Part shown: positions 5,064 to 49,155 of the stretch, piece by piece
Layout: each line of letters begins with the position of its first letter
Position numbering within the stretch: the stretch's first letter is position 1
Assembly: GCF_026210795.1 (NCBI RefSeq)
Contig: NC_089433.1
Span: forward strand, 1,984,001-2,048,000
Length of the DNA: 64,000 bases
Direction: 5' to 3'
Source of the DNA: Rhizophagus irregularis
Lineage: Eukaryota
Translations under genes and position numbers: made by a program
Notes under the pieces: generated by a model
What the model saw: the letters and a program-made list of their open reading frames with translations, nothing else
The model's database searches: none
What the model was told of the DNA's origin: nothing

Positions 5064-5112
5064 TAAAACACAATGATAAAAACAGTCGGGGAGTAAAAGT
5101 TAAAGAAGAAAA

Positions 5113-10334: not shown

Positions 10335-11403
10335 TTATTTCTAATATTTTAATTTTTTTTTTGATATATATATATATATATATTGCTTCTAATTATTTTT
10401 TTTCTGAAATGTTTCTTTTTTTTATAGTACAATTTTATTTCATGATATCCTTTAAAGATAACTTCAGAATTTTATAGATTTTTTACTAAAAAGATATTAA
10501 AGATATTAAATCATATGAGCCAATCCTTAGAATCTAATTTTTTTACACAAAAATAATTTTATTAAAGCAAATATAAATTATCATTTATATAAGAATAATA
10601 AATTTATACTAGATAATGCAAAAAAAACTAATTAATTATATAATTTTTAATTTTTTTTTAATATAAGATATCATTAAAATTTAAAAGATCAAATATAACT
10701 CTCATGATAAAATCATTGATAATTCTTCGTAGAAATAAGCTATACAAATAAATTTACATTCATTTAAAAGAAAAATTGAGATCTATCTAATGAATCTAAA
10801 ATCAAATGAATTGAATCACTAGTTGCTCAGTAATCACATTCAGTATATTTATTGAATTTTATCTAAATTTGATCATTAATTACTTCACATGTAGTGATTC
10901 AATTTGAATGATAAATTTAAAATAATTCGTTTATATATAGATGTTTAGGAATCATCAATTATATTAATAATATAAAATTTTATATGTTTAATAAAATCTG
11001 ATATAAAAAAATTTATTAAATACCTGTAGATGCAAGCTACACAAATGAAATTATATTCATTTGAAAATTGAGGTCTATCTAATAAGCCTAAAATCGAATA
11101 AATTGAATCACTAGATTGTGAATAATTACGTCTAATATATTTATTTTTAATTTTTTAAATTTGATTTGACTTTGATCGTTAATTACGCCTCATCCAGTGA
11201 TCCAATTTTCCTGATCTTTGATTTTTACAATAGAGCAAATTCTCAGCTTTCAAATGAATGTAAAATGATAATGTTAGCATATCTCCAGGAATAATAATGC
11301 ATGATTTTGTCACCTGCATAAAGTTCGATCTGAAAATTTTATTTCTTACCAAAAAATGCTTTCATAAGAGAATCCCAAATTCTTTTACTTTATTTAAAGG
11401 ATT

Positions 11404-11463
11404 AGTAGATAGATTAAGTAGACATCACTATATATATAGTGATGTCTACTTAATCTATCTACT
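11404..11463. repeat. Perfect 60-bp terminal palindrome, left (candidate telomere-resolution site)
   Basis: AGTAGATAGATTAAGTAGACATCACTATAT|ATATAGTGATGTCTACTTAATCTATCTACT. Confidence 0.97.
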
Positions 11464-12817
11464 TACACCATAGTGATGCCTACTTATAGATATTAATGCC
11501 TACTTACTTATTTTTAGGTGTCTATGCCCCTTCTGATGCTTTATTGCTACCCATCTGTTTTCACTAGTCTGTGACTGTTTGGTTGCTTTATAGATATTTG
11601 CTTGATTTTATTGTTCTGCCATCTTTTTACTGCCTTGTAACTATTTGCTTGTTTTCATTGCTCTGTAGCCTTTTTGTGGCCAAAATGCTTGGCCGGCCTT
11701 GATTGCTAAAAATCATGTTGTGATCGGGTGGCGCAGTAAATTTGCTAATCAGATTTTGGCCGGCATTATGCTATATTTTTGACCTAATCTTTAGGGCGGA
11801 ATATCTTGGCTTCCTGTGATTGGATTCATGCGGTTTTAAGCTCGTTCTGATGAGGACGTTGAGAGCTTTCCAATGATGCTAAGATCGCATGAATCAGATG
11901 CCTGGATGCCGAGATATTGCATCCTGAAATTTATGCAAAAAAAATATGGAATAGTGCTAGCCGAAATTAACGAAATTCTACTGCGCCTACTGCGTTAATC
12001 ATGTGATTCAGTTTCTCGCCAGTTCCAGGCACTTTCCCGTCACTTTCTCGCAACCTTCTTGCAACTTTCAAGGGATATTCAGGATTCGATCTGGTGTATC
12101 AGTTGGTCGGAGATTTGGAGATGCCTATTTGATTGCCGGATGAGGCACAAAGTGCCGAATTTGCAATCCATCTATTTGCCGAAGACATTTCACAATCCAT
12201 TTCCTCACTTTTTGATTGCCAGGGATGAGGCACGAAGTGCCGAATTGGTGACCTAGATGTGCAATCCTGCCTTCCATAACCCTTTTGATTGCCGAGAATG
12301 AGGCACAAAGTGCCGAATTTGTGCCCATTCTTGCAATCCCGCCCTTTATATGCCCTTTCTGATTGCTGTGTGAGGCTCATGCGAAGTGTCGAATTGGTTC
12401 AGGCTATATCGCTTTCATATCTTTTTTCGTGTATTCTCCTGAACCTTTCTGCCTTTCCAGTCTCTTTCCTGCCTATCGGTGGTAGGCCACTCAAGTGAAA
12501 TTTCTCTTTTCTTTCCTATATATAATTCTGCTTGAGTGGGTTACCATAAACTTGCTTGTTTTCGCCTTCTAGCTCTTGTTCCTGTATAGTTTCTACTCTG
12601 GGATACTTTGGAGTACTACTACATCGATTACTTTTAGGCATTATTATATTGATTACTTTGGGGTACTACTACTGACCCAGTATTTTGCCCACGCTAGCAA
12701 GCATATTCGCTCAAAATTATATAGAATTTTTATTTTGAACTTTGCTAGTTTCTCTGTTATTTTATACTGCTTTCTTGCATATACACCATGCTTCTTGCGC
12801 AAAAAAATGCTGGGCCT
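11404..12817 (+). repeat. Left TIR (1,414 bp)
   Basis: Reverse complement of 40682-42095; about nine substitutions seen by eye; mirrored ORFs in the track. Confidence 0.97.
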
Positions 12818-15800
12818 CACCCCGGAGTAATAAAGCTTTTCTCAAGCTTAACTGACCTTAATTATAAGCCTGGTCATAATAATCATGTGTATTTCCAAAA
12901 CTTGTCTATCAGTAAAGATGATGTCGCTCTTCTAGATACTTATGATCCTGAAGAGATTTTAAATAAATATATAGTTCGGGTTGCAGGAAAGGGCTTTACA
13001 GTAGTCGATCATCCATCCGAAGTTTATGGGTTTCCTGATGCTCACGAGTGCATTGATGGGAATTTGCCTCTCCGTCTGGTTCTAGATATTGATGCGAGGC
13101 AAAAGCCCGATCCCATGAATCCTAAATTTCCTTCCTTAGATGAGAGTAAAATTTCTCGTGAAGATTTATTATCCAAAATCTTAATTGCCTGTGTCGATAT
13201 TATAAATACTGATTTAAATTTTGCAATATTAGATGCTTTTACTTTAGCCAGCTCGTCTAATGCTAATAAATGCAGTTGGCATATTGTATATAAATATGCA
13301 CGGTTTATTGACTACAGAGATCTTAAGGGTTTTGTGGAAAAAGTCGCTGATAAGGTTGGAAAACCATACTCAAAGTTTATTGATATTGGACTTTATAAAT
13401 ATCGCTTTAGTCTCCGGCTCCTTGGATCAGCAAAGGAAGATAGAGTTAAAAGACCTGCGATTTCTTCAGTTAAGAAAGGATATCACAAACTAGAAGATTA
13501 TTTAGTTCAGCCTAAGTGGAACGCTTCTGAAATCTGGCCACAGACCTTTTCTCCTGAGAAAGAAGAGAAGAAATTTCAGCCCATCGAAGATGAAACCGCC
13601 TTAAGTAACGGAGCCAGCTTAGTTATCGCAAAATATGGATGGCTTGAGATCAGAAAAATTGGGAATGGATTTGTCCACTTTCAAGCCCAATTATATGAAG
13701 CATGTCCTATTTGTGAAATCAAGCACGAAAAGGATCAGTTATATGGCTTTCTTCGAAGTAATGGCTGTTTTGTACTCAAATGCTATCGGCAGAAAATTAT
13801 AAACCAGATCATAAAGGATTAGCATTTGGAAAAGTGATCAAAATTTCTGCAAAACCTAAGCGAGGAATAGTCGAAAGAATAGGTGATGCTATATCAAATC
13901 CACGCCCCCTTGTAGAATTATCAGAGACAATGATTAATGTAGAAAAATTAAAGGATGCTCCAGAAGTATATCCCGATTTCTTGGGTATTAAGAAAATGAC
14001 AACACTTATTCGTTCTCCTCTGGGAACATGGAAAACCACTACATTAAGAGAGATTATTATGGCATTGAAAAATAAGATACATGATCTCTCTTCTTTGCCA
14101 TGTTATATCTGGGTTTCTTACCAAAAGTCTCTTAGTAATGAATCAAAAACGAAACTTGATGAGCTAAAAGCATCTGGTTTTCGAATTTGCAATTATCAAA
14201 ATATACAAGGAGACTTATCTATAAATGAGTGGGATATTATCATAGTACAGGTTGAGAGTCTTTTCCGTATCGAGTTTACAGCCCGTCCATTTGTAGCTAT
14301 TCTTGATGAAGCTAATGCCATTATGCGTCAAATGTTTAGCGGTACAAATGCACGAGAATCTGAGAATGCAATACGTGATGTACTAAGATCTGCGAGACAT
14401 GTTTTGGCCATGGATGCTTTTGCAAATAAATCAACACTAACCTTCCTCCAGACTTATCGTGGTGAAAATATTTGCATAGTTGATAATAAGTATCAGCCTC
14501 GTATAGGTGAGACAGTTGAATTTATTTATGATCCGAATAGCGGAGCTGAAGCCATGCGAATAGGATATGATCTTTTGAGGCAGGGCAAACGTGTAGCATT
14601 CGTATCTACTGGAGCAGTGATGGCTAGAGCGTTAGTAGAAAAAGCATCTAAGTTGTTTAAACCCGACAATTCTCCTGTTAAAGCCCGTGCATATTATGGG
14701 AATATGGATGGGAAGCAGAGACAAAAAGACTTCTCTAATATTGATGTTGCTTGGGGTGAGCTTGACTGTGTAGCTTACACAAATACAGTGGAGGCGGGAA
14801 TATCATTTGAGGTTACGGGCCATTTTGATATAGTTATAGCTATTACAAACATCACCACTCCAGTTCATGTTGAGGCTCTTGCGCAAATGCTTTATCGAAT
14901 TCGTGACTGTCCTTGTCGTATTGTTTCTGTGTTTTATCAAAAAAATTCTAATGAACTTTTTCGTCCACCAGGTCGTGAAAATATCCGAGCAGAACTTGAA
15001 AGTGCTCGACCTAATAATTTGCCTACATCAATAAAGGGTCACTGTGAATGGGATAGCAACGCCGTTTCTTATAAAATCGATGAATCTCCTGCTGTAATAA
15101 CATTTGTCGAAGTTGAGCATCAGAAACGGCTTTCTGCGAGATATTTTATTGAGAAGCTTTGTAGTCTTATAGCCAGTACTGGTGCTTCTCTCCAACTAAT
15201 AAAAATGGATGAGAGCCGAGGAGTTATAGGGAATCGTAAAAAAGTCCGCAATGAGGTTAGAGTTGAAGCACTAGTTATCAAGGAAACAGATTTTGATGCA
15301 GTTGCTACTTCCCGAAATCTCGATCCTGAAGAAGCTGAAAATCTTAAGTTTGACCAAGAACGCTCTATCCCAGATACTATGGCACTTAAACGTTTCTATA
15401 TGCGAAATATTTATGGTAAAGATATAGACAATGAGATTTGGGATAATCTTTGCAATAAAAAGTTTGTAAAACATTTCAGTCCGCCCGAACCTCGGAAACA
15501 TTTCTTGTGGTTATCTCACTTTAGAAAGCAAGGCTATGATGAGGAAAGTGCAATGAAAGGGTTAGAGGTCAAAGATATTGCGCAATGGGAAGATAGCCAT
15601 TATAAAGCTGGTTATAATTCTGAGAAATCAATAGCAGAGGACTTGCACAAATCATATTCAGCTAATCATTGGAAAGTTATAAGGGAACTCTTTCAAATAC
15701 TAGGCTTTACCGGCATAGATGATAAGCGTATTCTTTCCAGTAATATAATATCAGAAACATTCACACAATCCTGCGAGAGGTTTATAAAAGTCCTGGATCA

Positions 15801-16095
15801 ATCCCTATTACTCTTCGGATTTAAGTCTCGTGCTAAGGTAACATCGGATCTTAATTCAGCTATAAGGGCAATTAATGCAATTGCTGGAAATTGGTGTGGC
15901 TATACTGTAAAGATAAATAGGAAAAAAATAGGGCCTAAAGAAAAACAGGTTTGGGAACGTTCATATCAAATTAATCGGCAACCATATGATGGTCTTGGTT
16001 TTGGAGATAAAGGTACGCCAGAGCTTCCACCATATAGGCCGAAAACAGATAATGATATTCAGGAACTCTTTGATTCTATAGGGCAAGACAAATAA
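12788..16095 (+). CDS. AEP primase-polymerase + zinc-binding domain + UL9/origin-binding-protein-like SF2 helicase; one frameshift near 13795
   Basis: AEP motifs LVLDID, SWHIVY, IDIGLY; zinc ligands CPIC..H...C; helicase RSPLGTWKT, LDEAN, AMDA, YTNTVEAGISF, QMLYRIR; the two ORFs overlap at 13780-13822. Confidence 0.85.
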
Positions 16096-17004: not shown

Positions 17005-18322
17005 ATGTCTACTGTAGAACCCACCCAAAAGACCCGGAAAGCGAAAACTAATAAATTTGTTTTGATTCTAGAACAGTTCTTAGAAATATATAACTTATCC
17101 GCAGAGTCCAGCCCAGAGCAATTAAGCGAACATGCCCTGAACTTAATGCTTTACTTCCAGATTGGAAGGCCCGTAAGTGCGTTAAGGAAGCCCTTGCGAG
17201 AGGCACTGAAAAGAGAAGTGCATTTAGCAAAGAGCAGAAAGAGGCTCTCGTGCCAGATCAGAGAAATATAATATATTCAGTCAGGAAAAGGGCTCAAGAA
17301 GTCACTAAAAGTGAAGATAAGTGGGATATTTTTATTAATACTTTAGATTTGGGACCAAAAGGAAGTAAGGATGGAGTAATTGATGATAAGGAAATGGTTG
17401 CTTCTAGCTCAAACCAATCACGATTTCGTAAGTATTTAGCAGAATACGGGGCCGATCGTGAACTTATTGATCGCTATGCCAAAGATTCAAAGACCACTAC
17501 AGCTTCCAATAAAATCCAGCAAGAGCGGACTGAGAAGCGCTTGGCTAATCCAGGTAGAACTCCAGAACATTTCACCTTTGAGAAAGTGCATAGGAGACTC
17601 CAGAATATCGATACTTCTAAAATTCCCTCTATGCAGGATCTCGCGGATGTGAGAGTGATGCTGATACGATGAGGCCTGCTGAAGTATCATCTCTCCAGAT
17701 TATTAATTACAAACCAGATTCCGAAGATCCGCCAGCGTGGTATAAAGCTGGTTATTCTTGGTATTGCACTGGATGTCGCAAACAGAGAGATAAACCGATG
17801 CCTATGCGCTTACTCTCTATGGAAAAGGATCCAGAACGTGCTAGGGAATTACTTACCTGGATTCAAGACGCTATTAAGGCTGGGAAGTTGCGTGATCCAG
17901 TTTATACTGAAACTGGAAAGCGTAATAATGTGCCATTTGCCAAATTCATAAAGAGTTTAAAAACTAATCAGGACGAAGATGAGATTACCCCCGAGCTTCT
18001 AAGAAAAATAGGAGCTAAACACGCCTCGATGATTCATGCCGGTCCAAATCCAACCCCTCAACATCTCGACAATCTTTCAGAAATCGCATTAAGACATAAA
18101 ATTAACCGTCTTGATGCAGGAAAAAATTACGCTTTGGGTGATCCAAAATCAAAGAAGGAGCCCAAATCTGAACCAGAGACAGGTGATGGTCCAAACCCCC
18201 AAACACAGGCTTCTTCACCTGCATCTCAGTCTAGAAATAACGATCCAAAAAAGTCTCAGACTATGGATATGGATTCAATGTTAGCAGAAATCGATGCAAT
18301 GTTAGCTGAAATTCGGAAATAG
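17005..18322 (+). pseudogene. Tyrosine recombinase, protelomerase/telomere-resolvase-like; two frameshifts (about 17136 and 17668)
   Basis: Ordered catalytic-type motifs MRPAEV (R), TGCRKQR (K), LLRKIGA (R), IALRH (H), AGKNY (Y); three ORFs join into about 440 aa. Confidence 0.72.
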
Positions 18323-18885: not shown

Positions 18886-19674
18886 TTGATCTACAATATT
18901 AGCAAAATGTTTGATGACGCGGATGAGGCCTATAATGAATTTATCAAAGAATATGGGGAAAGGTATGAATGGGGCAATGAAGGAATTCCCGAATTTACAC
19001 CAGAGTGGGAAGACTGGGAAGATCTTTTTTGCGAAATCAAAATCTATTGGAAGACAAAGGCAATTAGGCATTGGAAAGAAAAAATACTTAAGAAATTTAT
19101 ATATAGTCTGCCCGGTATAAGAAATCCAGCATCATTATTCCATGTATTCATACAATCCAATGCTTTTTACCTCCCACAAATTTTAAGCCTAATAGAATTA
19201 CCGTATAGTGCCGAGGAACTTCGATGGGAAATATGGCCGGATGGTAAAGATACAGATGAGATCAAGGTAGAAAATAATGCAGATGAGGTTGATAAGTTCC
19301 GGTGTGGATCATTGCTTCAAGATGAAGACTCAATAGTGGATTATTACTCGAAGATAAAGAGATGTAACGATGTTATCAAACTCTGTAAAAATCATCTTAA
19401 AGAAGTATTCATTAAAGGGTTAACGCCCAAAAATAAGCATTTCGCTTTAATGGATTTTGAATATATTTTTCCACCAGATTTACCTCTTGATGTATTGGTA
19501 ATAATGCTTATTCAAGTAGAAAAAGGTACAACGTCTAAACTACTCTTGCAAGCATGCTTAGACTTTATATCACAACAGCAAAGATTTGCTATTTATAAGT
19601 CCCCAATCGGTACATACAAGATTCTCGACCGGAAGAGGAAAATGGATGATAACCGTAAACCGTCTTACATTTAG
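18886..19674 (+). CDS. Hypothetical protein (likely start ATG 18907)
   Basis: 262-codon intronless ORF flanked by a direct repeat of about 105 bp. Confidence 0.6.
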   Translation: MIYNISKMFDDADEAYNEFIKEYGERYEWGNEGIPEFTPEWEDWEDLFCEIKIYWKTKAIRHWKEKILKKFIYSLPGIRNPASLFHVFIQSNAFYLPQILSLIELPYSAEELRWEIWPDGKDTDEIKVENNADEVDKFRCGSLLQDEDSIVDYYSKIKRCNDVIKLCKNHLKEVFIKGLTPKNKHFALMDFEYIFPPDLPLDVLVIMLIQVEKGTTSKLLLQACLDFISQQQRFAIYKSPIGTYKILDRKRKMDDNRKPSYI

Positions 19675-21101: not shown

Positions 21102-22816
21102 ATGTCTATCACTTTATTCTGTCTCGTTAAAGGAAATACAACCGCGAACGCTTTCTCTGTTAAAATAAACAGGGACGAGCCTATTAGTGAACTCAAGGAC
21201 GCTATTAAGGCAAAAAAGTCACCAGAGTTCGACAATTTTCCTGCAGACAGGCTCAGGCTATGGAAAAAGGAAATTCCTGACGATCAGGACGATCTCTTAA
21301 GCAATCTCATTCTCAATGACGAACCCGAGCTCCTTGCAACAAGAGAAATTGGAGACTACTGGACTGAGAAACCGCCTAAGAGGCATATCCATGTTATTGT
21401 AAAATTGCCCCGTAAGTGTCTGGAGTGTCTGGTATAGTCTAATTTTTCGTCATTTGCCCTTGTAATATTAACACGCATTCGTTTCCAGTTCTCAGCTTGG
21501 AAGAGGCGTTGTCGTGTATTCCACCACCCATAACATATTCTCCGGACTGCGTTACCTCGAAGACCACTACTAAGGCTGTAGGTGACCCGCCGGCAAGTGT
21601 GCAACTTTGGGGAGACTTTTTCGAGCAAGTGAACAGCTTTCATTTCGACCAACAGCCGATATTCGAGAGGCCGAGATTTAATGATAGATTTGCTGTGGTC
21701 GATGAAGAGGATGTTCGTAATGCCATAAATGTTAATATTTGTATGATATTGAATGATCTTACAGGACCAGACTACGTATATTCAAGGAAATCTACTGACA
21801 CTCCCGGCATACCAGATTTCAACTGTCATCTCGTGGGTTCATTGATCTTGGTGATGGAAGCTAAAAGAAAACATGTTTTAGAAGATATGGGGGAACAAAC
21901 ATTTCCCGAATTTTATCAGACGAGTAAAGGCAAGGATGTAGTTCAACAAATCTATAATTATATGGGAGGAAACGAACTTAGATATGGTATTCTCTCCACC
22001 TATGATAATCACTGGTTTCTACTCCGAGAGCATACAGAGCTCCGGATCTCAAAAACCCTCCCACTTCAATCTGAAACTCCACCTGTACTCAAGGCATATG
22101 CTTATCTAACTCGACGGGCGAAAGAGAATCCCAAGTCTCCTAAACCTCAAGTACTAGTGCCGGCTCATGGAGACAATAATTCACGTAATCTTCGGTCACA
22201 TTCGAAATCGACTTCCAGCTCCTCAATAGATCAACAATCAACTTCCGGCACTTTTGCAAATCAACAATCGTCTTCTAACATCCCAGTAAACCAGCAAAAG
22301 TTTAGCTTCGCGGACTTCAAGTTTAAGGGCATACTAGGTGAAGGACGAAGTGGTAAAACACTCCTTTGCGAGTTTCGTGGCGATACGATTGCTTTGAAGA
22401 GCGTAGACTTGTCGAAGGCTCCATCGTATGTTCTGAAAGAAATGCAGAAGGAAGTAGAGATTTACAAGGAACTCGCTGATATCCAAGGCAAGTATATCCC
22501 GAAGTTGGTCTGTTATGGATATTATGGAGGAGGTATGAGCTTCGTTATCGGCATGACTATTGTCGGCACTTCGTTGAGCGACCAAAAAATAAAGAAACAG
22601 CAAAAGACAAGGGCTATTAAGGGATTAGAAGCGATCCACAAGCATGGCATCCTCCACAATGACATTCGGGAGGAAAACATCTTAATTAACGATGACGGTG
22701 GCGTCTATCTGATTGACTTCGGTATGGCAAGTCGGGAGGACACAAAAAAGAAGAGAAAGCTTTTCGAGGAGGAACAGCTCAAATACTCTAACTTGCTAGA
22801 TAGATATAATACGTAA
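21102..22816 (+). CDS. Crinkler-family effector-like protein: N-terminal header + restriction-endonuclease-like domain + protein kinase; intron 21412-21488
   Basis: MSITLFCLVKG, LRLWKK, HIHVIVKLP; the GTAAGT...CAG intron restores the frame; PDF...MEAKR; LGEGRSG, ALK, HNDIREENIL, DFG. Confidence 0.9.
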
Positions 22817-30100: not shown

Positions 30101-30486
30101 ACTTTATGATGTTTTAATGCCGAGCTAATTAGATTTAAATCCAATAGGAAACGAAATCAAGATATTTAGCATGGATTTAACTTTTGACGGTTTATACCGT
30201 TATAATCAATTATCAAAAATCTTGTTGCCAACGGAAAATGCGAATTTCTTAAATATAATTACTGTAATATCTACCTTTTATTCTTTATTGGTAAGAGTCT
30301 TACTTTATAGTTCAAACAAGTTGCTTTGCTGTTTAATCACTAATTATTTTTATTATGTAGGAAAGGATAAGATCCACCATTGTAACTATGAATTCATCTC
30401 AACCATCATCATCCTCTGGTCACTTGTATTGTCGAAAGTCGAATTCGTCACCTAGAAAAATTCGTGTACCGATAGTTAGAGTTTAG
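27190..30486 (+). pseudogene. Multi-exon host-type gene with PD-(D/E)xK nuclease-like C-terminal domain, disrupted by a MITE
   Basis: Many short GT-AG introns; removing the MITE gives GRKPDFRVL-SKIDDVNMEFLFGEIKPP; last exon 30361-30486 ends in TAG. Confidence 0.7.
29562..29888. mobile_element. hAT-like MITE
   Basis: TIR TAGAGCTTGGACTCG/CGAGTCCAAGCTCTA; 8-bp TSD GTGTACTC; many ACTCGAG motifs. Confidence 0.92.
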
Positions 30487-31181: not shown

Positions 31182-32045
31182 ATGGATTTAGATAGTAAAG
31201 CCTATTCCAAGTTAATTCATGCACACAATAGTATTGGAGGCTCTGAAGAATATATAAGAATTATTGTTGCAATATTGCCTTTAGCAGAAAAACATGATTA
31301 TGAAACACCAGAAATGTGGTGCTCTCGTATTCGTGATCCATTTAGGAAAATACTAGAAGAGAACTATTCCAGGGGAATCCTTTCTAAAAATGGATATATT
31401 ACAATGTATGGAAAGCTATATGTAGATGATAAGATTCATAATCGTCTAACCAATTATATATATTGCAGTGTATGTAACTCCTTAGTTTTCATACCTGCAA
31501 ATAGTCTTTTTGAGGATTGCTATGGAGATAACCACTTGAAGAGATGTATTTCTGGAAATACTATTTCGAATGAACATGCAAGAAGAAATGAAATTCTCCA
31601 AACTATTGATAGAAGGGAATTTCAGATCTGGCAATATAAACAATACATATTACAAAAAGAGGCTAAAATTAATCGTCTTCAGCTAGAGCTTTCATCCCAA
31701 TCTATTCCACATTCAGAAAAGGATAAATTGGCATCGGTATCATATGATATTGATGGAAATTTTACGGCTAGCTATGAAAATTATGCACAATCTAAAGCAA
31801 AAGATACTATGCCAAATGCTTCAAATTTCGAGCCAGCTTATATTTCACCTACTAGACAAGAAACGATTTTACCAACTTCTTATCAATCATCAAGTCCTAG
31901 CCAAAGGCGCTCAGAGCAAGGGATTACAAGTGAAATATTTATCTCATCTCGGTATGCTAAACAAAATAACTTATTACCATCTATAGACCATCTTAATCAG
32001 CCCGCATTAAGATTGAGAGATAGTACAAAAATCACATTCGTTTAA
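31182..32045 (+). CDS. Hypothetical protein with a possible zinc finger (CSVC...H...C)
   Basis: 287-aa intronless ORF. Confidence 0.65.
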   Translation: MDLDSKAYSKLIHAHNSIGGSEEYIRIIVAILPLAEKHDYETPEMWCSRIRDPFRKILEENYSRGILSKNGYITMYGKLYVDDKIHNRLTNYIYCSVCNSLVFIPANSLFEDCYGDNHLKRCISGNTISNEHARRNEILQTIDRREFQIWQYKQYILQKEAKINRLQLELSSQSIPHSEKDKLASVSYDIDGNFTASYENYAQSKAKDTMPNASNFEPAYISPTRQETILPTSYQSSSPSQRRSEQGITSEIFISSRYAKQNNLLPSIDHLNQPALRLRDSTKITFV

Positions 32046-32322: not shown

Positions 32323-34783
32323 ATGTCATTTCACAAATCTCACCCAAGGCAGAGAAGAACATGTGAAGAATATAAAGCTGAGCTGGAAGAAGAGAACTAT
32401 CATCTTCATAGTGAATTGCAGATAGAAGTTGATACTAATCGCCAGAATGAGAGACGAATTAATCAACTGGAACGGGATTATACCCGATGTGAGCAAGAAA
32501 TTCAAGATCTTAATAAGGAGATAGAGCGTCTTGAAAATGCTTCGAAAGAAGAGATAGTAGAGTTAAAATCTGAAATCTCTACCCTAAAAAGTCAGCTATA
32601 TCAAGCTAGGAATGATGTGCGAGATAAGGGAAAATATATTTCTAGTTTAGAAGAGCAGTTAGTAGAATCTGAGGAACAAGTTAAGAAATTGCGATGCCGG
32701 ATCAGAAGCATCTCATCACGAAAAAATTCGCCTGAACGAGGGAATTCTCCAGACTTGTATAATTCTGATGATAATATGGCCACAATCACAGAGCTAGCAA
32801 ATGCTATAGATGGTTATGTGGATAATAGAACAACAACTAGGGATATTCTTATAGACCAAATAAAAAGAGCTACAAGGCAGATACGCCGAAAAGAAAATAA
32901 TTTGCATCAGGATTTAGTCCGTGAGCAACGAAGGCGTTATGATGCAGAAGCTGAACGTGATAATGAAATTATACGAAGGCAACTTGCTGAAGGTAGGATA
33001 ACTAATGTTATTGGTGATCTCCATCAATATCAAACTAATACTCAAAACCAGGTAAATAGAATGATAGGTAATATGGCAAGAAAACAAGCCCGTATAGGTG
33101 TGCTGGTACAAGAAAAATTTGCCTTACAATTATTGTATCAGCGAAATGCCCACCACTTACAGCGAAGTAGAGGGGATATAGGTCTGTTAGAATTTAATCG
33201 AGACAGGCTCTATGAACGATATGAGAAATGGAAAAATAAGACCCAAGCAGAGCGCCAGAATAATTTAAATTTACAGGGACAAATTTTGGCGCTTCAGAAT
33301 AATCCACCTAATCAAGTAAACATGGCAGGAATACCTCATCCATATTTCAACTGGGATGATAGTATCCCAGACTTTCTTGCACAACTTAGACTAGACTTGC
33401 AGAATCGGGGAATAGATCCAAATGATAATGTAGCAGGTCCTCCAACAGGAAGAGATAATGCAATAGGACATTTAAGAGCCTGTATGAGAGGAAGGACTTT
33501 AGAATGGTTCGATGATGAGATTACTACAAAGCAGAATTGGGAGCTAACTAACTTACTCGATAATACAGGGCAGGCTAACTTAGTTGCAGTAAATGGGCGA
33601 ACTGCAGTACAGATAGGGGCTAATGCATTAAATGAGGCTGTTGGCCAACCAGGAAATGCAATAGTCAAGTTAAGAGCTGTAGAAGATGCTTGGAATGAAG
33701 ACTGGCGTATAGCAGGTGGCCGTCCTACTAATGATCCTGTAAATGCACCAAATGCTAATGCTGAAAATACAGTAGTTGTAGCTGGTATTCGATTTGGTCA
33801 AGCCGTATGGTGGCTAAAAACTCATTTCCCTACAGTAGAAGAGGAACTTCGGGATTTGATGTATGGAACAATCAGAAAGGGAGACATGACTATAGATGAA
33901 TTATATAGAAAAATATTACGAATAGGTAGACGAGCCAACTATAGACCTGAAGAATTACGTAGAAAGTTCTTAGATGCTTTACCACTTTTATGGCTTGAAA
34001 AAGCTGAAGATATTGGTGAACATTTGCCATTAGATGAATTAGCTAAAAAGCTTTATGAGATAGAATTACGCCGAATAGCTAGACATAAAAGAGATAGAAC
34101 ATCTGATCCGCTAGTATCTAATCGAACATCTTGGCAAATATATGAACCTTCACCTGTTTCAGCCTCACAACAGCATGGAATATCTTTCGAAGATATGCAA
34201 AAAGCAATCCAGAATGCACTAGCACAGCAAAAAACTGAATACCAGTCTTTATTAGAAAAACAAAAAGCCGATTTCCAATCACAAATGGTCCAGCAAACTA
34301 AAAAGATACCTCCACCAGTTCCTCCTAAAAATATGGAACAGCTTCTTAATACATATGAAAGCGCTAATCCTTTCCCTGATACACTTACTAGGGAAGAAAT
34401 AATGAGAGTGGTCGCAAAAGCTTATGGGCCACCTCCTAAACCGCAAAAAGCCAGAAAAGTTGCAATCATCTAGAATCGATAGATTAGAGTCAAAAATAGA
34501 TGAAATTGGTCAAATGACATCTAAGTTTGGTAGGATATCACTTAATGATCAATCTCGAAAGCCTTTTTATTGCAGTAATTGCGGACAGGAAGGGCATAAG
34601 AAAAACAATTGCTCAAGGTTAAATCCTGTAGCTAAATCCAATTTTACTCAATGTTACTATCCTCAACTTCCATCTACACAGCCCCAATATACGCCTCCAG
34701 ATTCAGATAATGAGGAAGATGGTTATGATAAAGTAGAAAATGCGTGGTATTATACACCTGAAAAAAAAAACAACTACCACTAA
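32323..34783 (+). CDS. Gag-like polyprotein: coiled coil + capsid-like region + CCHC knuckle; frameshift near 34455
   Basis: FLAQLR...WFDDEI; TIDELYRKILRIG...LRRKFLDALP resembles a Ty3/Gypsy capsid C-terminal domain; CSNCGQEGHKKNNC in ORF 34424..34783. Confidence 0.72.
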
Positions 34784-35358
34784 ATGATATGTTACCTCTA
34801 GAGTCCAGTCAGCCAAAAACATATGATGAATTATTTCCAAAACTTTCACCGGTAATGCGAAAAATGTGTCAGTCTCATACAGTTCAGAAGAAAGAATCAA
34901 TATCAGATGAGTGGTTTTCATCATTACAATATCTGAATGCTAAAATAGATGATTTAACGATCTCTAATTCTTTTTTAGATAGTGCAAGTGAGTTCAGGGG
35001 AGCGAATGATGCAACAATTAATGCCCTTGGGTGGAAAGCTGATAAGCCATCGGACTTCGCAATAAAAGGTAATTCCAAACACATTACCGATTCATTGGGA
35101 TGGTTTACTGATGTACCAATCAGTATAAAGGATAAGGATGGTAAAACTGTCACAGCTACTGGAAATTTTACTCGTATTGATAATGGAGAAACCGAACCAA
35201 TGTTATGTTTAGGTATGACATGGATTAGGAAAGTTCAAGGTGTCCTCGACCCAAATAAAAATCAATTCCGAATGAAGTTACATGGGAAAGCTTACATTAT
35301 CCCAACTTTTAGCAAAGCTCCAGAAGTTGAAGATCCGCCAAAAGAAGATCAGGACTAA
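34762..35358 (+). CDS. Retropepsin-like aspartic protease, probably expressed by -1 frameshift
   Basis: FLDSASEF (DSG-like) and LCLGMTWI (LGxxW-like); frame is open from 34762, across A_AAA_AAC. Confidence 0.75.
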   Translation, partial: KKKQLPLNDMLPLESSQPKTYDELFPKLSPVMRKMCQSHTVQKKESISDEWFSSLQYLNAKIDDLTISNSFLDSASEFRGANDATINALGWKADKPSDFAIKGNSKHITDSLGWFTDVPISIKDKDGKTVTATGNFTRIDNGETEPMLCLGMTWIRKVQGVLDPNKNQFRMKLHGKAYIIPTFSKAPEVEDPPKEDQD

Positions 35359-35502
35359 GTATCTACCGATTCCTCTAACCTGACTAGTGAGGAGGATTTA
35401 AAAAAAAGTGTGAAGAGCTTGAAGAGTGACTAATAAAAACTGAGAGATGGCTTGACATAGCATTAAATGCAGGTAATATTCTTGCAGAAAAATGCTCACG
35501 AC

Positions 35503-36063
35503 TTATGGAGAATAGATCGGATGCATGACAGCTTCTCTAGTAATATTTACTAATTTATTAAGATCAAATTCCCGTCTAGATGTATCATCTTTAAAAGAAT
35601 TGGCTACTTTATCTGCAGAAGAAGATTCGTCTTTTGGCTTTATACTAGCCTTTTTTTTCCGACTAACTTTATCTTTTCGCCCATTAGTTACTGTATTCAG
35701 ACCATTAGAATTTGCATCATTCTTATTATCCATAGGATATTCTGTATGAGTGATCCCGTCTTCTTGTATGATAGTGGAGGAGGAAGTATCATGTAAAGAT
35801 TCCTGATTATTTTCTGAAATCTGGTCAGAGATGCTAACAGATTCTATGATTCTACGCCATTCCTCAGTAGGTTCAGGAGGCCTTTTATTATCAATTATTT
35901 TTTGATATGTTGTTGATCCTATACGATGCTTTTTACACATAATACGCCGAGCATCTGGAATATTATTCTGAGCATTTCTAATTTCTTCAATAGCTTCAGA
36001 TGACAAGCGTCGGGCATCTGATCTAAGAAATTTACGAGTATGGGTTGTTTGTTTTTTGCTCAT
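35503..36063 (-). CDS. Hypothetical basic protein with a possible N-terminal helix-turn-helix
   Basis: RLSSEAIEEIR...IMCKKHRIGSTTYQKII. Confidence 0.55.
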   Translation of the reverse strand: MSKKQTTHTRKFLRSDARRLSSEAIEEIRNAQNNIPDARRIMCKKHRIGSTTYQKIIDNKRPPEPTEEWRRIIESVSISDQISENNQESLHDTSSSTIIQEDGITHTEYPMDNKNDANSNGLNTVTNGRKDKVSRKKKASIKPKDESSSADKVANSFKDDTSRREFDLNKLVNITREAVMHPIYSP

Positions 36064-36430
36064 AGTTTGCTAGTAATAAATCTGTATAATACTAATAAAA
36101 AACTTGTAGAAAATTTATTTGATATTGGTCTGGCATTAGTCTGGCATTAGTCTAGCATTGGTTTGTTACATATATGTAGTTCGCTTTCTTTACAGTGTAG
36201 CGTGCTATAATCATGATTCAAATAAAAAATAGGTTTAGGATATATATACTTCAAATATCATATTTGTTTTAAACTAGTTTGTTATTGGTCTTTTATTAGT
36301 TTGATATTGGTTTGATTCTGAACTCCTTTTTTCCATATTCGAAGAAAAAATATACATATGAATGATAATTTCGCTGATGGCCGTCAGGAAAAAAAAAATC
36401 ATAAAAAACTTTGCCTTCAAATAAATTCAT

Positions 36431-37394: not shown

Positions 37395-38183
37395 TCAATC
37401 ATTTTGCCAATCCTTTAAAGGTTTGTCCCATCTAAATCTAATTGATAAGGGGTCATCAGATGGTCTTTGGATATCAATAACCACGAAATGTTTTTTTATC
37501 ACTTCATAAACTTTTTTTGCTAGAGGCTCATAATCATCATACATATCTTTAAGAATTCGTTTTATACTATCTAATGTTCCACATCCACGATGCAGCGAAA
37601 TATATTTAAAATTTCTGCGTATATTTTGATGGATTTCATAGAAACGCTGGGCAATATAAATTGAGCTAATTCCTTCATGTCTGCCTGATCTAAAGAAAAG
37701 AACAATTTTTAGCTGAGTTGCCAAAGGTTCCCCAGCAAGATCATCAAAGACTATAACAGTAGATCGGCCAGTTCTTTTGAAAGATGAAATATCAGATAGA
37801 TCTTCAGGTGCGATTAGCTTGAATCTCACATTTTCATACCATGGAGCTTGCTTATCCATGGCTATAAATTCATAAAAACATTGTACTACTTCCCATAGCT
37901 CATCTTGGTGTTGCGCAACAACAATTAGATCATTACACGGAATATATCTTTCACCAAAATTTTTGCTTCCGCCTTTTGGTATTTTATGACCACGTTTTTC
38001 ACCAGACATCCATGGATATACTTTTGGATATTTACTTCCTAGGAGCTGATGTACTACCATCTTTGTCTTTCCTGACTCAGAGGTGCCCGCAACTCCTAGT
38101 CTAAATGGAAGTTTAGGAGCAAATGGATTCTGTTTTTTCGAAGGTACAGTTTCGTCTAATTTGCATAGCTCGTAATACTCCAT
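37395..38183 (-). CDS. A32/FtsK-HerA-type DNA packaging ATPase (Polinton/virophage-like)
   Basis: Walker A GTSESGKT; Walker B IVFDDL; FRSGRHEGIS; IAQ...IRRN; ATG at 38183. Confidence 0.88.
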   Translation of the reverse strand: MEYYELCKLDETVPSKKQNPFAPKLPFRLGVAGTSESGKTKMVVHQLLGSKYPKVYPWMSGEKRGHKIPKGGSKNFGERYIPCNDLIVVAQHQDELWEVVQCFYEFIAMDKQAPWYENVRFKLIAPEDLSDISSFKRTGRSTVIVFDDLAGEPLATQLKIVLFFRSGRHEGISSIYIAQRFYEIHQNIRRNFKYISLHRGCGTLDSIKRILKDMYDDYEPLAKKVYEVIKKHFVVIDIQRPSDDPLSIRFRWDKPLKDWQND

Positions 38184-38314: not shown

Positions 38315-39526
38315 ATGGGAGAGCGTCAAGTCGAAAGACCGGTTATTTATATCGATCCTCAAAAAGCGCGAGAGCTAAATCAAATCATAGCAAAACAAAT
38401 ACCTACGATTAATATCGATTCCCAAAAAGCTCATAATTTAGACCAGCATCTTGCCTTGCAAAAACTATATTATTGTCCTGAAGGTCTGTATCAAAATGTT
38501 AAGGGATTGTGGGATGCTTGTAAAAAAGCCGGCTACAGCTTTCTATTTATTAATGTAAAAAAATGGCTTGAGGGCCAAGCAATGTATCAAATTTTTCGTC
38601 CTTCACCAAAGCATATACCTTATGCCAGTTACTCTAAAATCACGAAGCCAAATACTGTACACCAATGTGATTTAATCAAAATACCATATGATGAAAATGT
38701 GGATACAAATTTACTAGATAATGATGGCCCAATATATTACTATGTACTATTGGTTATAGACTGCGCGACTAGATATAAAGATTTCATTTTTTTAACATCA
38801 AAAAGCAGTGAGGAAGTTGCGGAAGCATTTAAGAGTATATATGATAATCCTGATAAACCTCTTAACTGGCCTCGAAAATTGCAATGTGATAAGGGCACTG
38901 AGTTTATGGGATACGTGACTTTATTAATGGATGAACATGGCGTTGAGATCCGAAGAATTATAGCACGTTTCAGGCATACAAGTTTCGCAATGATCGATCG
39001 TTATGCTGGATTATTCGAATATAGAGTTTTTAAAAATCAGTATTCAATAGAGTTTCTCCTACCTACTGGCAAGCGCTGTAGAGAATGTGAGCGGTTTGCA
39101 AGAAAAATTGTTGATAATATGAATGATAGCCCAACTCGATTGATTGGGATGAGTCCTAATGACGCCACAAAACTTGAGCAGATATATTCCAAACCATCAG
39201 TAAAATATAATCGCTCAATAGGTGTTGATGAACCACAACTACCAAAGGGTACTACTATCCGATTTTTGCTCGCTCCTGGAGAGTGGGAAAACGATCCTTT
39301 CGAACGACGCAGAATAACAGATCCGATATGGTCTCCCAGCCTGCATAAGATTCGGAAAATTGTTGTTGGAAAGAATCCTCCAATGCCTATTTTATATTAT
39401 TTAGATGAATCAGGACCCCAACGCCCTTTCGTGAGAGAACAATTGATGCATATTAAGGAAGAGCCCATGTTACCTCCTAGGTGGGTATTGGGAGATAACC
39501 GAATGCGTACAAGGCGCTCTTTATAA
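38315..39526 (+). CDS. Retroviral-like (rve) integrase, Maverick/Polinton type
   Basis: HQCDLI, VIDCATRY, LQCDKGTEF, MIDR (D at the usual E position); N terminus LYY...VKKWL; intact 403-aa ORF. Confidence 0.92.
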   Translation: MGERQVERPVIYIDPQKARELNQIIAKQIPTINIDSQKAHNLDQHLALQKLYYCPEGLYQNVKGLWDACKKAGYSFLFINVKKWLEGQAMYQIFRPSPKHIPYASYSKITKPNTVHQCDLIKIPYDENVDTNLLDNDGPIYYYVLLVIDCATRYKDFIFLTSKSSEEVAEAFKSIYDNPDKPLNWPRKLQCDKGTEFMGYVTLLMDEHGVEIRRIIARFRHTSFAMIDRYAGLFEYRVFKNQYSIEFLLPTGKRCRECERFARKIVDNMNDSPTRLIGMSPNDATKLEQIYSKPSVKYNRSIGVDEPQLPKGTTIRFLLAPGEWENDPFERRRITDPIWSPSLHKIRKIVVGKNPPMPILYYLDESGPQRPFVREQLMHIKEEPMLPPRWVLGDNRMRTRRSL

Positions 39527-40016
39527 AAGTTTCTAAGTCTACTACACAGTAAGGGATTGTAATAAGGATTACTCCTTTCCGATAGCATAACACTTTCTTT
39601 TTCCAATCACGCCAGATTTGTGCATCTAGATCCATCTGCCCTTGCAGGTGAAAAAAAGGGACGATTTGATAGTGCTGATTACCGCTATATTCAAAAGCCA
39701 AGCCTAGCTCTTCATTATATCCATCTAGATGTAATCCCTCCAAGAATTTAGGTTTTCGGAGAGGAAATTTTTTATGCGATAAATCCTCAAATATATACCG
39801 GCATGTTCTTTCTGGTACATTAGGACAAATATTGCACCATCTATAATTCTGTTTCATATTTTTATATGGCGCCTCCCATTGATGGCCTTTTTTACATGCC
39901 CATAAATATGTATTAGGACTAACTTTAGCTAAGCATCTTCCTTCACGCTTTTGGGCATATGCCAAAGCTTTAGTATTAATATCATCTTGCATTTTATAGG
40001 TACAATAGAATATCAC
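39477..40016 (-). CDS. Zinc ribbon + PD-(D/E)xK/Vsr-like endonuclease
   Basis: WACKKGHQW...WCNIC; LHLDGYNEELGLAFEYSGNQHY. Confidence 0.78.
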   Translation of the reverse strand: MIFYCTYKMQDDINTKALAYAQKREGRCLAKVSPNTYLWACKKGHQWEAPYKNMKQNYRWCNICPNVPERTCRYIFEDLSHKKFPLRKPKFLEGLHLDGYNEELGLAFEYSGNQHYQIVPFFHLQGQMDLDAQIWRDWKKKVLCYRKGVILITIPYCVVDLETFIKSALYAFGYLPIPT

Positions 40017-40243: not shown

Positions 40244-40711
40244 TTATGTATTATTGATATTATCAAGTAGATCGATATCTTTTAACAATTTTTTCGTTTG
40301 TTTATAAAGATTTTGCCATTGTACATGAAATTTGTTTCGTAAGACAGAAGACTTAATAAGACAGGGAAGAATACTTGTAAGATTATTTATATGGGATTTG
40401 ATTACTGCATGAACATTTGCAATTTTTTCTCCTGCTGTAATCCAATCATAATACAGAGTATAAAGAACTGTATGAATACGGGTTATTTCTTGTTTACTCC
40501 AGTTTAACCGATATTTTATAAAATCAAGATCTTCACGAAGTTCCCTTTCTTTTTGCTTTAAAATAACTCGAAATGCTTCAAAATTCCATTGATGATTTAT
40601 AGTAAGACAGGAATATAGTATATCTTTAATCTTGAGATTACTAAAAATTAATTCAAGCAGTTCAGAACAAACAAGTGGGCCAGGCCCAGCATTTTTTTGC
40701 GCAAGAAGCAT
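40244..40711 (-). CDS. F-box protein
   Basis: SELLELIFSNLKIKDILYSCLTINHQWN; starts inside the right TIR. Confidence 0.7.
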   Translation of the reverse strand: MLLAQKNAGPGPLVCSELLELIFSNLKIKDILYSCLTINHQWNFEAFRVILKQKERELREDLDFIKYRLNWSKQEITRIHTVLYTLYYDWITAGEKIANVHAVIKSHINNLTSILPCLIKSSVLRNKFHVQWQNLYKQTKKLLKDIDLLDNINNT

Positions 40712-42095
40712 GGTGTATATGCAAGAAAGCAGTATAAAATAACAGAGAAACTAGCAAAGTTCAAAATAAAAATTCTATATAATTTTGAGCGAATATGCTT
40801 GCTAGCGTGGGCAAAATACTGGGTCAGTAGTAGTACCCCAAAGTAATCAATATAATAATGCCTAAAAGTAATCGATGTAGTAGTACTCCAAAGTATCCCA
40901 GAGTAGAAACTATACAGGAACAAGAGCTAGAAGGCGAAAACAAGCAAGTTTATGGTAACCCACTCAAGCAGAATTATATATAGGAAAGAAAAGAGAAATT
41001 TCACTTGAGTGGCCTACCACCGATAGGCAGGAAAGAGACTGGAAAGGCAGAAAGGTTCAAGAGAATACACGAAAAAAGATATGAAAGCGATATAGCCTGA
41101 ACCAATTCGACACTTCGCATGAGCCTCACACAGCAATCAGAAAGGGCATATAAAGGGCGGGATTGCAAGAATGGGCACAAATTCGGCACTTTGTGCCTCA
41201 TCCTCGGCAATCAAAAGGGTTATGGAAGGCAGGATTGCACATCTAGGTCACCAATTCGGCACTTCGTGCCTCATCCCTGGCAATCAAAAAGTGAGGAAAT
41301 GGATTGTGAAATGTCTTCGGCAAATAGATGAATTGCAAATTCGGCACTTTGTGCCTCATCCGGCAATCAAATAGGCATCTCCAAATCTCCAACCAACTGA
41401 TACACCAGATCGAATCCTGAATATCCCTTGAAAGTTGCAAGAAGGTTGCGAGAAAGTGACGGGGAAGTGCCTGGAACTGGCGAGAAACTGGATCACATGA
41501 TTAACACAGTAGGCGCAGTAGAATTTCGTTAATTTCGGCTAGCACTATTCCATATTTTTTTTGCATAAATTTCAGGATGCAATATCTCGGCATCCAGGCA
41601 TCCGATTCATGCGATCTTAGCATCATTGGAAAGCTCTCAACGTCCTCATCAGAACGAGCTTAAAACCGCATGAATCCAATCACAGGAAGCCAAGATATTC
41701 CGCCCTAAAGATTAGGTCAAAAATATAGCATAATGCCGGCCAAAATCTGATTAGCAAATTTACTGCGCCACCCGATCACAACATGATTTTTAGCAATCAA
41801 GGCCGGCCAAGCATTTTGGCCACAAAAAGGCTACAGAGCAATGAAAACAAGCAAATAGTTACAAGGCAGTAAAAAGATGGCAGAACAATAAAATCAAGCA
41901 AATATTTATAAAGCAACCAAACAGTCACAGACTAGTGAAAACAGATGGGTAGCAATAAAGCATCAGAAGGGGCATAGACACCTAAAAATAAGTAAGTAGG
42001 CATTAATATCTATAAGTAGGCATCACTATGGTGTAAGTAGATAGATTAAGTAGACATCACTATATATATAGTGATGTCTACTTAATCTATCTACT
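40682..42095 (-). repeat. Right TIR (1,414 bp)
   Basis: Reverse complement of 11404-12817. Confidence 0.97.
42036..42095. repeat. Perfect 60-bp terminal palindrome, right
   Basis: Identical to 11404-11463. Confidence 0.97.
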
Positions 42096-43029
42096 GGATT
42101 TTATTTGCCATTTAAGGATTTTAGTAGAATAAATCTAATAAAATAAATTTAAAAGATAAAAAACAAATATATAATTAGTTATTTTGAAAAAAAAAGAATA
42201 TCTTATTATTCATTTTACAACTATTTTACATCATAATTATTTTTTATTTGCATGTATTTTTTACAAAGAAAAAACAATAAATTAAAGCTAAAAATTATGA
42301 AAAAATATGTCTTTCTATGTATATAAAATATTAAGTTTTTTTTTTACTTACCACTTAAAAATAACTGCTATATTTGCTTATAAACTTTTTTTTCATATTT
42401 AATAAAAGTGAATAGAAAAATGATGGAAAAGTGATGGGCAGTGATGGGGAAAAAGAAGTGGTTATTACCGTTATTTTTAAATATTGATTAAAAAAATTTT
42501 TTTTATTTTTTATTAAATCTGAGTTATGTAAATATGTAACACATATTTAATTTAGATTTGTGTAATGTTAATTTTACTAAAATATTAAATTTTTATAAAA
42601 ATCTTAATTTAGACTAATTCCAAAAATTAGCACATATGTAATTAATTATAACGATAATGTATTTTTAAAAATGTTTAATAAAATATCAAATTAATGAAAA
42701 ATAAACTAAATAAAATTCAGAAATAAATCAGCTGGCTTTAGATTACAATTCTCATATATGAATACAGATCGAATCATTTACTAATGTAAGTCAAATATCC
42801 TTTCCGAATATAAGACGATTGGCACCCTAAATGTGCCCAAAAATTTGATCTCAATTTGATACAGGTTAGATCATCATTCGACCTATATTCGACCTGATCA
42901 AATTTAGGTTGAATTGTCCTATTTCAACTAGATAGTGTAACACCTGCTTTTCCAGAAACATTTTTATTTTACATCAGTCAATCACTCTGAACGTAACACA
43001 TTTTTTTATCTGAGTCTTATAATACATAA

Positions 43030-49050: not shown

Positions 49051-49155
49051 ACCATGATATAAAGATATCTCAAATTATAAATACAGTCGGACCTCTATGT
49101 ACCAATACTGTTGTTTTAGGAAAAATATATCAGTATATCAAATTATCGTTACATA

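What the first reader, a model, noticed from the sequence alone, without database searches (positions are those of the whole stretch)
32323..35358. Gag-knuckle-protease module with no RT, RNase H or LTRs inside a DNA element
Seen: coiled coil, capsid-like helical region, CCHC knuckle and retropepsin-like ORF, followed by unrelated genes. I see no RT and no flanking LTRs. Inference: this may be a co-opted retroelement capsid replacing the jelly-roll capsid. Pairing Gag with a DNA packaging ATPase would be very unusual. The alternative is a truncated Ty3/Gypsy insertion.
Basis: partly seen in the sequence, partly recalled or inferred. Interest (0 to 1): 0.82.

Follow-up and report, generated by a model that had tools for sequence, protein, structure and literature searches.

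The report
Fungal DNA element with retroviral capsid
A 31-kb Polinton-like DNA element of mycorrhizal fungi carries retrovirus-type capsid and protease genes, but no reverse transcriptase or jelly-roll capsid, beside its DNA-packaging motor, and likely uses that shell as its particle, which would be a new way to build a DNA virus.

Summary
The module lies in a 30.7-kb element (11404-42095) with 1.4-kb terminal inverted repeats and a 5-bp target duplication, in a Rhizophagus genome. The element encodes a primase-like protein, a UL9-type helicase, an A32 packaging ATPase and an rve integrase; no jelly-roll capsid, PolB, RT or RNase H was found. The predicted capsid has the retroviral/LTR CA fold, plus a ~90-residue insertion. 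This is not a truncated Ty3 insertion: relatives across Glomeromycota stop after the protease (0 of 69 long relatives carry RT), and the module recurs beside the ATPase in other strains and species. Gag and protease frames both end in lysine runs (47/74 and 31/52, background 8%). Here these sit on slippery heptamers, pointing to two programmed -1 frameshifts, with a short peptide where pol would be. That Gag is the particle, and that the ATPase fills it, is inferred. A 2021 figure legend already labels Gag/Pro genes on a PolB element, probably from Rhizophagus, without discussion.

The parts
11399..11403 (.). Left target-site duplication GGATT
   Evidence: same 5 bases at 42096-42100
11404..12822 (.). 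Left terminal inverted repeat (1419 nt, 99%), starting AGTAG; its first 60 nt are a perfect palindrome
12788..13822 (+). Likely archaeo-eukaryotic primase (D5 N-terminal type)
   Evidence: weak PDB hit to poxvirus D5 primase domain, E 0.007; DxD/H motifs by eye
13780..16095 (+). UL9-like superfamily-2 helicase
   Evidence: Pfam Herpes_ori_bp E 6e-20
17094..18322 (+). Possible tyrosine-recombinase-like gene in two frames
   Evidence: motifs by eye only; no hit in Pfam, PHROG, NCBIfam or PDB
18907..19674 (+). ORF holding a second CA C-terminal-domain-like stretch (19294-19440)
   Evidence: hhalign E 9e-5; family CTD HMM E 8e-7
21102..22816 (+). Host-like cargo: Crinkler N-terminal domain and protein kinase (probably one spliced gene)
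   Evidence: Pfam E 9e-28 and 6e-16
31182..32045 (+). Unknown 287-aa ORF upstream of gag; same order in R. diaphanus gene model P0095
32323..33321 (+). Gag N-terminal long coiled coil (aa 1-333), in the place of a matrix domain
   Evidence: model helices 14-325; 79-85% identical across capsid types
33322..34122 (+). Two-domain retroviral/LTR-type capsid protein, with a family-specific ~90-aa insertion in the N-domain (33526-33792) and the C-domain at 33814-34086
   Evidence: VIA top 37 rows all CA proteins; PEG10 CTD Z 10.2, rmsd 2.7, 83 aligned
34123..34783 (+). Gag tail with one CCHC knuckle (~34568-34615); window shows one extra base at ~34445
34765..34771 (+). Slippery heptamer A AAA AAC in the Gag frame; predicted -1 frameshift into the protease frame
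   Evidence: offset confirmed by a gapless short-read contig over 34699-36322; lysine-run ends in 47 of 74 Gag termini
34762..35358 (+). Retropepsin frame (domain 34930-35322, active-site motif D-S-A); stop at 35356 comes 17 codons before the second slippery run that ends homologues
35397..35528 (+). Second slippery run (U UUA AAA / A AAA AAA in the protease frame) and a ~43-codon third frame in place of pol; internal stop at 35427 in this copy
   Evidence: conserved in P0065, P0087, P0079, P0411
35503..36063 (-). Small conserved ORF, possibly DNA-binding
   Evidence: 78-80% to Gigaspora models fused to the ATPase; homologue in L001
36431..37315 (+). Coiled-coil protein with a C-terminal hydrophobic, probably transmembrane, segment
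   Evidence: tail-to-tail with the ATPase in 8 of 12 metagenome loci
37395..38183 (-). A32/FtsK-type genome-packaging ATPase, Walker A and B intact
   Evidence: Pfam Pox_A32 E 7e-6
38315..39526 (+). rve-type integrase
   Evidence: Pfam rve E 8e-7, below the curated cut-off
39477..39992 (-). Homing-type endonuclease
   Evidence: PHROG hits to E 3e-13
40677..42095 (.). Right terminal inverted repeat, ending CTACT, with the same 60-nt palindrome
42096..42100 (.). Right target-site duplication GGATT

Best explanation
The Gag-protease pair is a resident, family-wide gene module of Glomeromycota Polinton-like DNA elements and likely serves as their particle-building module in place of the jelly-roll capsid and adenain protease. 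Shown: element boundaries, gene content, CA fold, family-wide absence of pol after the protease, and recurrence next to the ATPase. Inferred steps: (1) the element is copied as DNA by its primase-helicase with host polymerases and inserted by the rve integrase (5-bp duplication). (2) Gag (coiled coil-CA-knuckle) is made in bulk; a -1 slip at A AAA AAC gives a minority Gag-protease fusion, and a second slip adds a short helical peptide where retroviruses have Pol. (3) Gag assembles a CA lattice, with the insertion probably on its surface, and the retropepsin matures it. (4) The conserved A32 ATPase, with the membrane-anchored coiled-coil protein encoded beside it, loads or positions the element's DNA. 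Step 4 is the weakest. This copy has early stops in the protease tail and the third frame, so it may be partly decayed.
For: Boundaries. CA fold: (top 37 rows all retroviral/LTR CA; Copia aligned over model 3-255). No pol: best 150 of 758 profile hits all <=893 aa; 0 of 69 longest relatives hit RT, RNase H or integrase; after a complete protease the tail is <=80 aa in 46 of 52 and at most 179. Linkage: on 5 of 10 contigs where numbered Gag and ATPase relatives co-occur they lie within 1-6 gene numbers. Gene models from Gigaspora, Glomus and an unnamed source join Gag or protease to the coiled-coil/TM gene (P0087, P0104, P0085, P0390), and that gene abuts the ATPase in 8 of 12 metagenome loci. 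Recoding: KK in the last 8 residues of 47/74 Gag ends and 31/52 protease ends, against 8% background and 10/103 ATPase ends. ATPase dN/dS 0.20-0.60 in 14 of 15 segments. 137 CTDs fall into 16 clusters at 50% identity, and capsid types 25-33% identical are swapped under coiled coils ~80% identical. No MCP had been found in the Glomus Polinton (PMC7805220). Elements that lose the MCP often lose the ATPase as well (PMC4028283), yet here it is kept.
Against: No particle, transcript or frameshift product is shown. From established knowledge (recalled), Gag shells assemble around RNA through the knuckle and are not filled by portal ATPases. The knuckle is missing in several homologues. Five of the 10 shared contigs have the pair 27-551 gene numbers apart, and two of the five close pairs may be this same insertion in other strains. 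No stable hairpin follows the first slippery site (z -0.4 to 0.3) and only a weak one the second (z down to -2.0). The active-site motif is D-S-A here and D-P-G in 18 of 65 relatives, so protease activity is uncertain. A very divergent jelly-roll gene cannot be excluded without folding every ORF and reading other full elements. Selection on gag/pro rests on 7 of 11 synonymous variants (p~0.05).
Confidence: 0.5

Rival explanations
1. The module is resident but does not package the element's DNA. Gag forms RNA-containing or empty shells (an Arc/PEG10-like RNP), or restricts host LTR retrotransposons as a dominant-negative capsid. The ATPase has another job or serves a helper capsid.
For: The CCHC knuckle suggests RNA binding. 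Capsid types are swapped and diverse, as an arms race could produce. A second CTD-like gene sits in the element, recalling CTD-only Ty1 restriction factors (PDB rows). The element carries host-like cargo.
Against: A restriction factor would not obviously need a protease, two conserved slippery ends and a fixed place beside the ATPase block.
Confidence: 0.3
2. The element moves through a retro-type cycle with RT supplied in trans: Gag, protease and integrase are the remains of a split Ty3 pol and act on an RNA copy.
For: Gag, retropepsin and rve integrase all belong to the LTR toolkit; the target duplication is 5 bp.
Against: Termini are long inverted repeats, not LTRs. The element has its own primase-like and helicase genes, genes on both strands and 30.7 kb.
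Confidence: 0.08
3. The element is packaged by a jelly-roll capsid that I failed to recognise, or that a helper supplies; Gag is an accessory protein.
For: A32 ATPases normally work with jelly-roll capsids (PMC4028283). MCPs are very divergent and have been missed before (PMC7805220). 24.7-31.2 kb is fragmented.
Against: The ORFs over 250 aa are assigned, or look helical or disordered by eye. Earlier surveys found no MCP in the Glomus element.
Confidence: 0.08
4. It is a truncated Ty3/Gypsy insertion in this one copy.
For: The fold and protease are of LTR type; this copy has lesions.
Against: No LTR or pol remnant. Relatives in Glomerales, Diversisporales and Paraglomerales share the module; those with a complete protease stop at the same point, and the same neighbours recur in Rhizophagus, Glomus and Gigaspora.
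Confidence: 0.04

Closest known systems
[quoted passage not shown]
   Same: Size, long TIRs, short target duplication, rve integrase, A32 ATPase. A 2026 preprint places Glomus/Rhizophagus ATPases with Maverick-Polintons. Fig. [quoted passage not shown]
   Different: No PolB here (primase-like plus SF2 helicase instead); no jelly-roll MCP, penton or adenain found. The text I read does not discuss the Gag genes, their spread, the frameshifts or the link to the ATPase.
Ty3/Gypsy retrotransposons (Metaviridae) and beta/deltaretrovirus gag-pro-pol
   Same: CA fold, CCHC knuckle, retropepsin; protease in the -1 frame behind A AAA AAC, one of the shiftiest heptamers (PMC5009743). The double-frameshift layout of MMTV/HTLV is recalled.
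   Different: No LTRs, RT or RNase H; the third frame is a ~43-codon peptide; ~330-aa coiled coil in front; ~90-aa insertion in CA; integrase is a separate gene 3 kb away.
Domesticated Gag genes (PEG10, Arc, PNMA2; Ty1 p22/Drt2)
   Same: Closest solved folds. PEG10 as Gag plus a -1 frameshifted protease without RT is recalled.
   Different: Those are host loci; this module sits in a multicopy mobile DNA element beside a packaging ATPase.
Ngaro retrotransposons nested in EMALE virophages (PMC8547959)
   Same: A gag-bearing retroelement inside an integrating DNA virus; a plausible route of origin.
   Different: Ngaros are complete insertions with RT, RNase H, YR and their own repeats, and EMALEs keep their MCP.

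Membership tests
Polinton/Maverick | Long TIRs and short target duplication | tested here: met
   1419-nt TIRs, 5-bp GGATT
Polinton/Maverick | rve integrase | tested here: met
   Pfam rve E 8e-7, 29.8 bits against cut-off 32.6
Polinton/Maverick | A32-type packaging ATPase | tested here: met
   Pox_A32 E 7e-6; motifs conserved
Polinton/Maverick | Protein-primed PolB | tested here: not met
   No PolB hit among element ORFs; primase-like and UL9 helicase instead
Polinton/Maverick or PLV | Double jelly-roll MCP, penton, adenain protease | tested here: inconclusive
   No profile hit and no evident candidate, but only Gag was folded; divergent MCPs escape these libraries
Ty3/Gypsy LTR retrotransposon | Gag CA fold | tested here: met
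   Retrotrans_gag passes cut-off in three relatives
Ty3/Gypsy LTR retrotransposon | Retropepsin | tested here: met
   Asp_protease_2 passes cut-off in two relatives; activity untested
Ty3/Gypsy LTR retrotransposon | RT and RNase H after the protease | tested here: not met
   None in the element; 0 of 69 long relatives; tails <=179 aa in 52
Ty3/Gypsy LTR retrotransposon | Flanking LTRs | tested here: not met
Virus with particles | Particles that hold the genome | not testable with these tools
   Needs expression and EM
Programmed -1 frameshift | Slippery heptamer in frame, conserved at the junction | tested here: met
   (conservation seen at protein level only)
Programmed -1 frameshift | 3' stimulatory structure | tested here: inconclusive
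   No significant hairpin at site 1, weak at site 2; pseudoknots not modelled

The most novel reading that the evidence does not exclude
These elements are DNA viruses with no reverse transcription step that replaced their jelly-roll capsid and cysteine protease with a retroviral-type Gag shell and aspartic protease, kept the Polinton packaging ATPase to load a ~30-kb DNA genome, and use a membrane-anchored coiled-coil protein for budding or cell-to-cell movement: a chimera of two virus realms in mycorrhizal fungi.
Probability: 0.4. Interest if true: 0.93.

Novelty: new variant of a known kind. Interest (0 to 1): 0.76.

Why it matters
Capsid type and packaging motor are treated as a fixed pair, and Gag shells are known only from reverse-transcribing elements and their domesticated genes (recalled). 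A DNA element that kept the motor and changed the shell would break that rule. It would explain why no capsid was found in Glomus Polintons, and it offers a route for moving cargo genes such as Crinkler domains and kinases among mycorrhizal fungi. Even under the RNP or restriction reading, it is a widespread, largely undescribed Gag family with swappable capsids and two predicted frameshifts, and it can be tested directly.

Tried and rejected
No whole genome is held for the window, so other copies were not read as DNA; linkage rests on accession numbers, fused gene models and short contigs. Viral-contig scans with Gag, ATPase and their alignments and one prokaryote-genome scan found no relatives. 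The metagenome scan gave 12 loci of 1.2-2.9 kb, none reaching the protease. The search of longer proteins covered only 1919-5000 aa and found none, which is weak evidence; 1254-1918 aa was covered only by the profile search, of whose 758 hits the best 150 were seen. The closest true LTR relative was therefore not identified. Foldseek gave no E<=0.001 hit for either model, although PEG10 CTD ranked first; the third Foldseek job was not used. The protease profile hit DDI1-like structures only at E 1.6. No RNA holder was listed; expression is untested. DNA-level conservation of the slippery sites in other copies was not obtained, and no complex prediction was made. I first thought the third frame was the start of the coiled-coil/TM gene; relatives end it at the same place (P0065, P0243), so it is a separate short frame. 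The tyrosine-recombinase call is unsupported by any library. Three look-ups of earlier findings returned nothing. Nine literature searches found no analysis of this module beyond the 2021 legend; the original 2006-2007 Polinton papers and that paper's cut supplement could not be checked.

Full report
Setting. The window is from an arbuscular mycorrhizal fungus: the Gag protein is 98% identical to a Rhizophagus irregularis protein, and every species-named hit among 104 is a glomeromycete. The finding lies inside an element at 11404-42095 with 1419-nt inverted repeats, ends AGTAG...CTACT, a perfect 60-nt palindrome at each end, and GGATT duplicated on both sides. It encodes a UL9-type helicase, a likely primase, an A32 ATPase, an rve integrase, a homing-type nuclease and host-like cargo. 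No PolB, RT, RNase H or jelly-roll hit was found among its ORFs.

The module. A model of the long ORF shows a ~330-residue coiled coil followed by a helical two-domain protein. Folded alone (mean pLDDT 73, pTM 0.59), the second part matches retroviral and LTR capsids. The top 37 rows of a search of 48,161 chains are all CA proteins: PEG10 CTD Z 10.2, rmsd 2.7 over 83 residues; Arc C-lobe Z 9.1; Copia aligned over residues 3-255 at Z 8.8 with rmsd 12.3. Single Z values of this size are not decisive for helical proteins; the consistency of the list is. Foldseek ranked PEG10 first but only at E 0.05. A ~90-residue insertion of low model confidence interrupts the N-domain; 177 of 206 family proteins with a CTD also match it. 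The knuckle and protease are real; relatives pass the Pfam cut-offs for Retrotrans_gag (3 of 69) and Asp_protease_2 (2 of 69).

Frames. The window splits Gag from its knuckle by one extra base near 34445. Short-read contigs of four runs lack it and homologues read through, so Gag is one frame ending at 34783. The offset between Gag and protease is real: a contig covers 34699-36322 without gaps. The junction holds A AAA AAC in the Gag frame, with the protease in the -1 frame; this heptamer is among the shiftiest known (PMC5009743, passages). A second run, U UUA AAA / A AAA AAA, lies where homologous protease frames end. Across relatives de-duplicated by their last 30 residues, 47 of 74 Gag ends and 31 of 52 complete-protease ends have KK in the last eight residues, against 8% in nearby windows and 10 of 103 ATPase ends; these sets include truncated gene models. 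The frame after the second run is a ~43-codon peptide, matched in four relatives, among them Cetraspora and Gigaspora models. In this copy it, and the protease tail, carry early stops that short reads confirm. No stimulatory hairpin was found at site 1, so the frameshifts are predicted, not shown.

Not a truncated Ty3. A profile search of 1.84 billion representatives gave 758 hits at E<=0.001; the best 150 are all 893 aa or shorter. I scanned 69 long relatives (58 of those hits at >=300 aa plus 11 from earlier calls): none has RT, RNase H or integrase. After a complete protease, 46 of 52 have <=80 further residues and none more than 179. The longest of 321 family proteins (1379 aa) continues into non-pol sequence. 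No direct repeat flanks the module. Limits: the remaining 608 hits were not seen, and an RT in a separate downstream frame in other copies is excluded only indirectly, by what gene models join to the protease.

Linkage to the ATPase block. On 10 contigs where numbered Gag and ATPase relatives co-occur, five pairs lie within 1-6 gene numbers: CAB4407378/384, CAB5190896/899, OCT59_022622/618, OCT59_012628/625 and C1646_760589/588. Five lie 27, 48, 145, 356 and 551 apart. The lists were partial (10 clusters each, at most 15 members), and the first two pairs may be this insertion in other strains. Gene models join Gag or protease to the coiled-coil/TM gene in Gigaspora (P0087, P0104), Glomus cerebriforme (P0085) and an unnamed source (P0390). 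That gene lies tail-to-tail with the ATPase in 8 of 12 metagenome loci; of the other four, two end within the ATPase and two show no hit. L001 repeats the order small ORF, coiled-coil/TM, ATPase, integrase. For the second common capsid type the link is indirect only (P0085 to L003), and three of the distant pairs involve that type.

Selection and modularity. ATPase dN/dS against metagenome loci is 0.20-0.60 in 14 of 15 segments and 0.88 in one; several loci are decayed. Of the 11 best-supported gag/pro differences, 7 are synonymous (35% expected for transitions, p~0.05); the upstream ORF has 1 of 8. The family holds 16 CTD clusters at 50% identity among 137 domains, and capsids 25-33% identical sit behind coiled coils 79-85% identical. 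Whole capsid units are thus exchanged, while fold motifs and frame layout persist.

How it likely works. The element replicates as DNA and integrates by rve. Gag-protease stands where Polintons have MCP, penton and adenain, beside the retained ATPase. Polintons that lose the MCP often lose the ATPase too (nine cases, PMC4028283, passages), so its retention suggests a particle. I infer that Gag builds that particle, a minority frameshift product matures it, and the ATPase with the membrane-anchored protein loads or positions DNA (0.5). Against this, known Gag shells form around RNA and are not motor-filled (recalled). The main rival is a resident RNP or restriction role (0.3).

What is known. 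Mavericks are expanded in Glomerales (PMC11952901, passages). No MCP had been found in the Glomus Polinton (PMC7805220, passages). Glomus/Rhizophagus ATPases group with Maverick-Polintons (2026 preprint, passages). Primase-helicase Polinton-like elements were suspected in R. irregularis (PMC11296320, passages). Starrett et al. [quoted passage not shown] I could not see the figure, and the supplement is cut. So the gene content was probably labelled once; nine searches found no analysis of it. Passages of PMC5751038, PMC8547959, PMC8778642, PMC11075540, PMC11071296 and PMC6431247 added context only.

Verdict. A real, family-wide Gag-protease module without pol in a capsid-less Polinton-like lineage: a new variant of a known kind, and a new kind of virion if particle tests succeed.

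Noticed in passing
window 11404-11463 and 42036-42095: Each end is a perfect 60-nt palindrome. With the possible tyrosine-recombinase-like gene at 17094-18322, this recalls protelomerase targets and hairpin-ended linear replicons (idea from recall; no library confirmed the enzyme).
   Followed up: partly
window 18907-19674: A separate ORF carries a CA C-terminal-domain-like stretch, a possible stand-alone CTD regulator or restriction factor.
   Followed up: partly
window 27190-30455: Fragmented, probably spliced or decayed host-like gene; resembles Crinkler-type nuclease effectors by eye.
   Followed up: no
window 21053-21575 and 43896-44556: Inverted 72-92% copies of the Crinkler N-terminal region inside and just outside the element, suggesting cargo capture from a host family.
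   Followed up: no
window 45505-46290: ORF with a weak Tse2-like ADP-ribosyltransferase Pfam hit (E 3e-5), outside the element.
   Followed up: no
window 1788-7235: LINE-type element (RT, endonuclease, RRM-bearing ORF) on the minus strand, unrelated to the module.
   Followed up: no
window 35443-36749: In run X7 a deeper contig joins these places, so other copies differ between the third frame and the coiled-coil/TM gene.
   Followed up: partly
L002:370-1714: Two ATPase copies of opposite orientation on one 2-kb contig.
   Followed up: no
window 48580-50193, 7528-7943, 9794-10341: Tandem arrays (42, 71, 52 nt) and foldback repeats outside the element, probably MITE-like.
   Followed up: no
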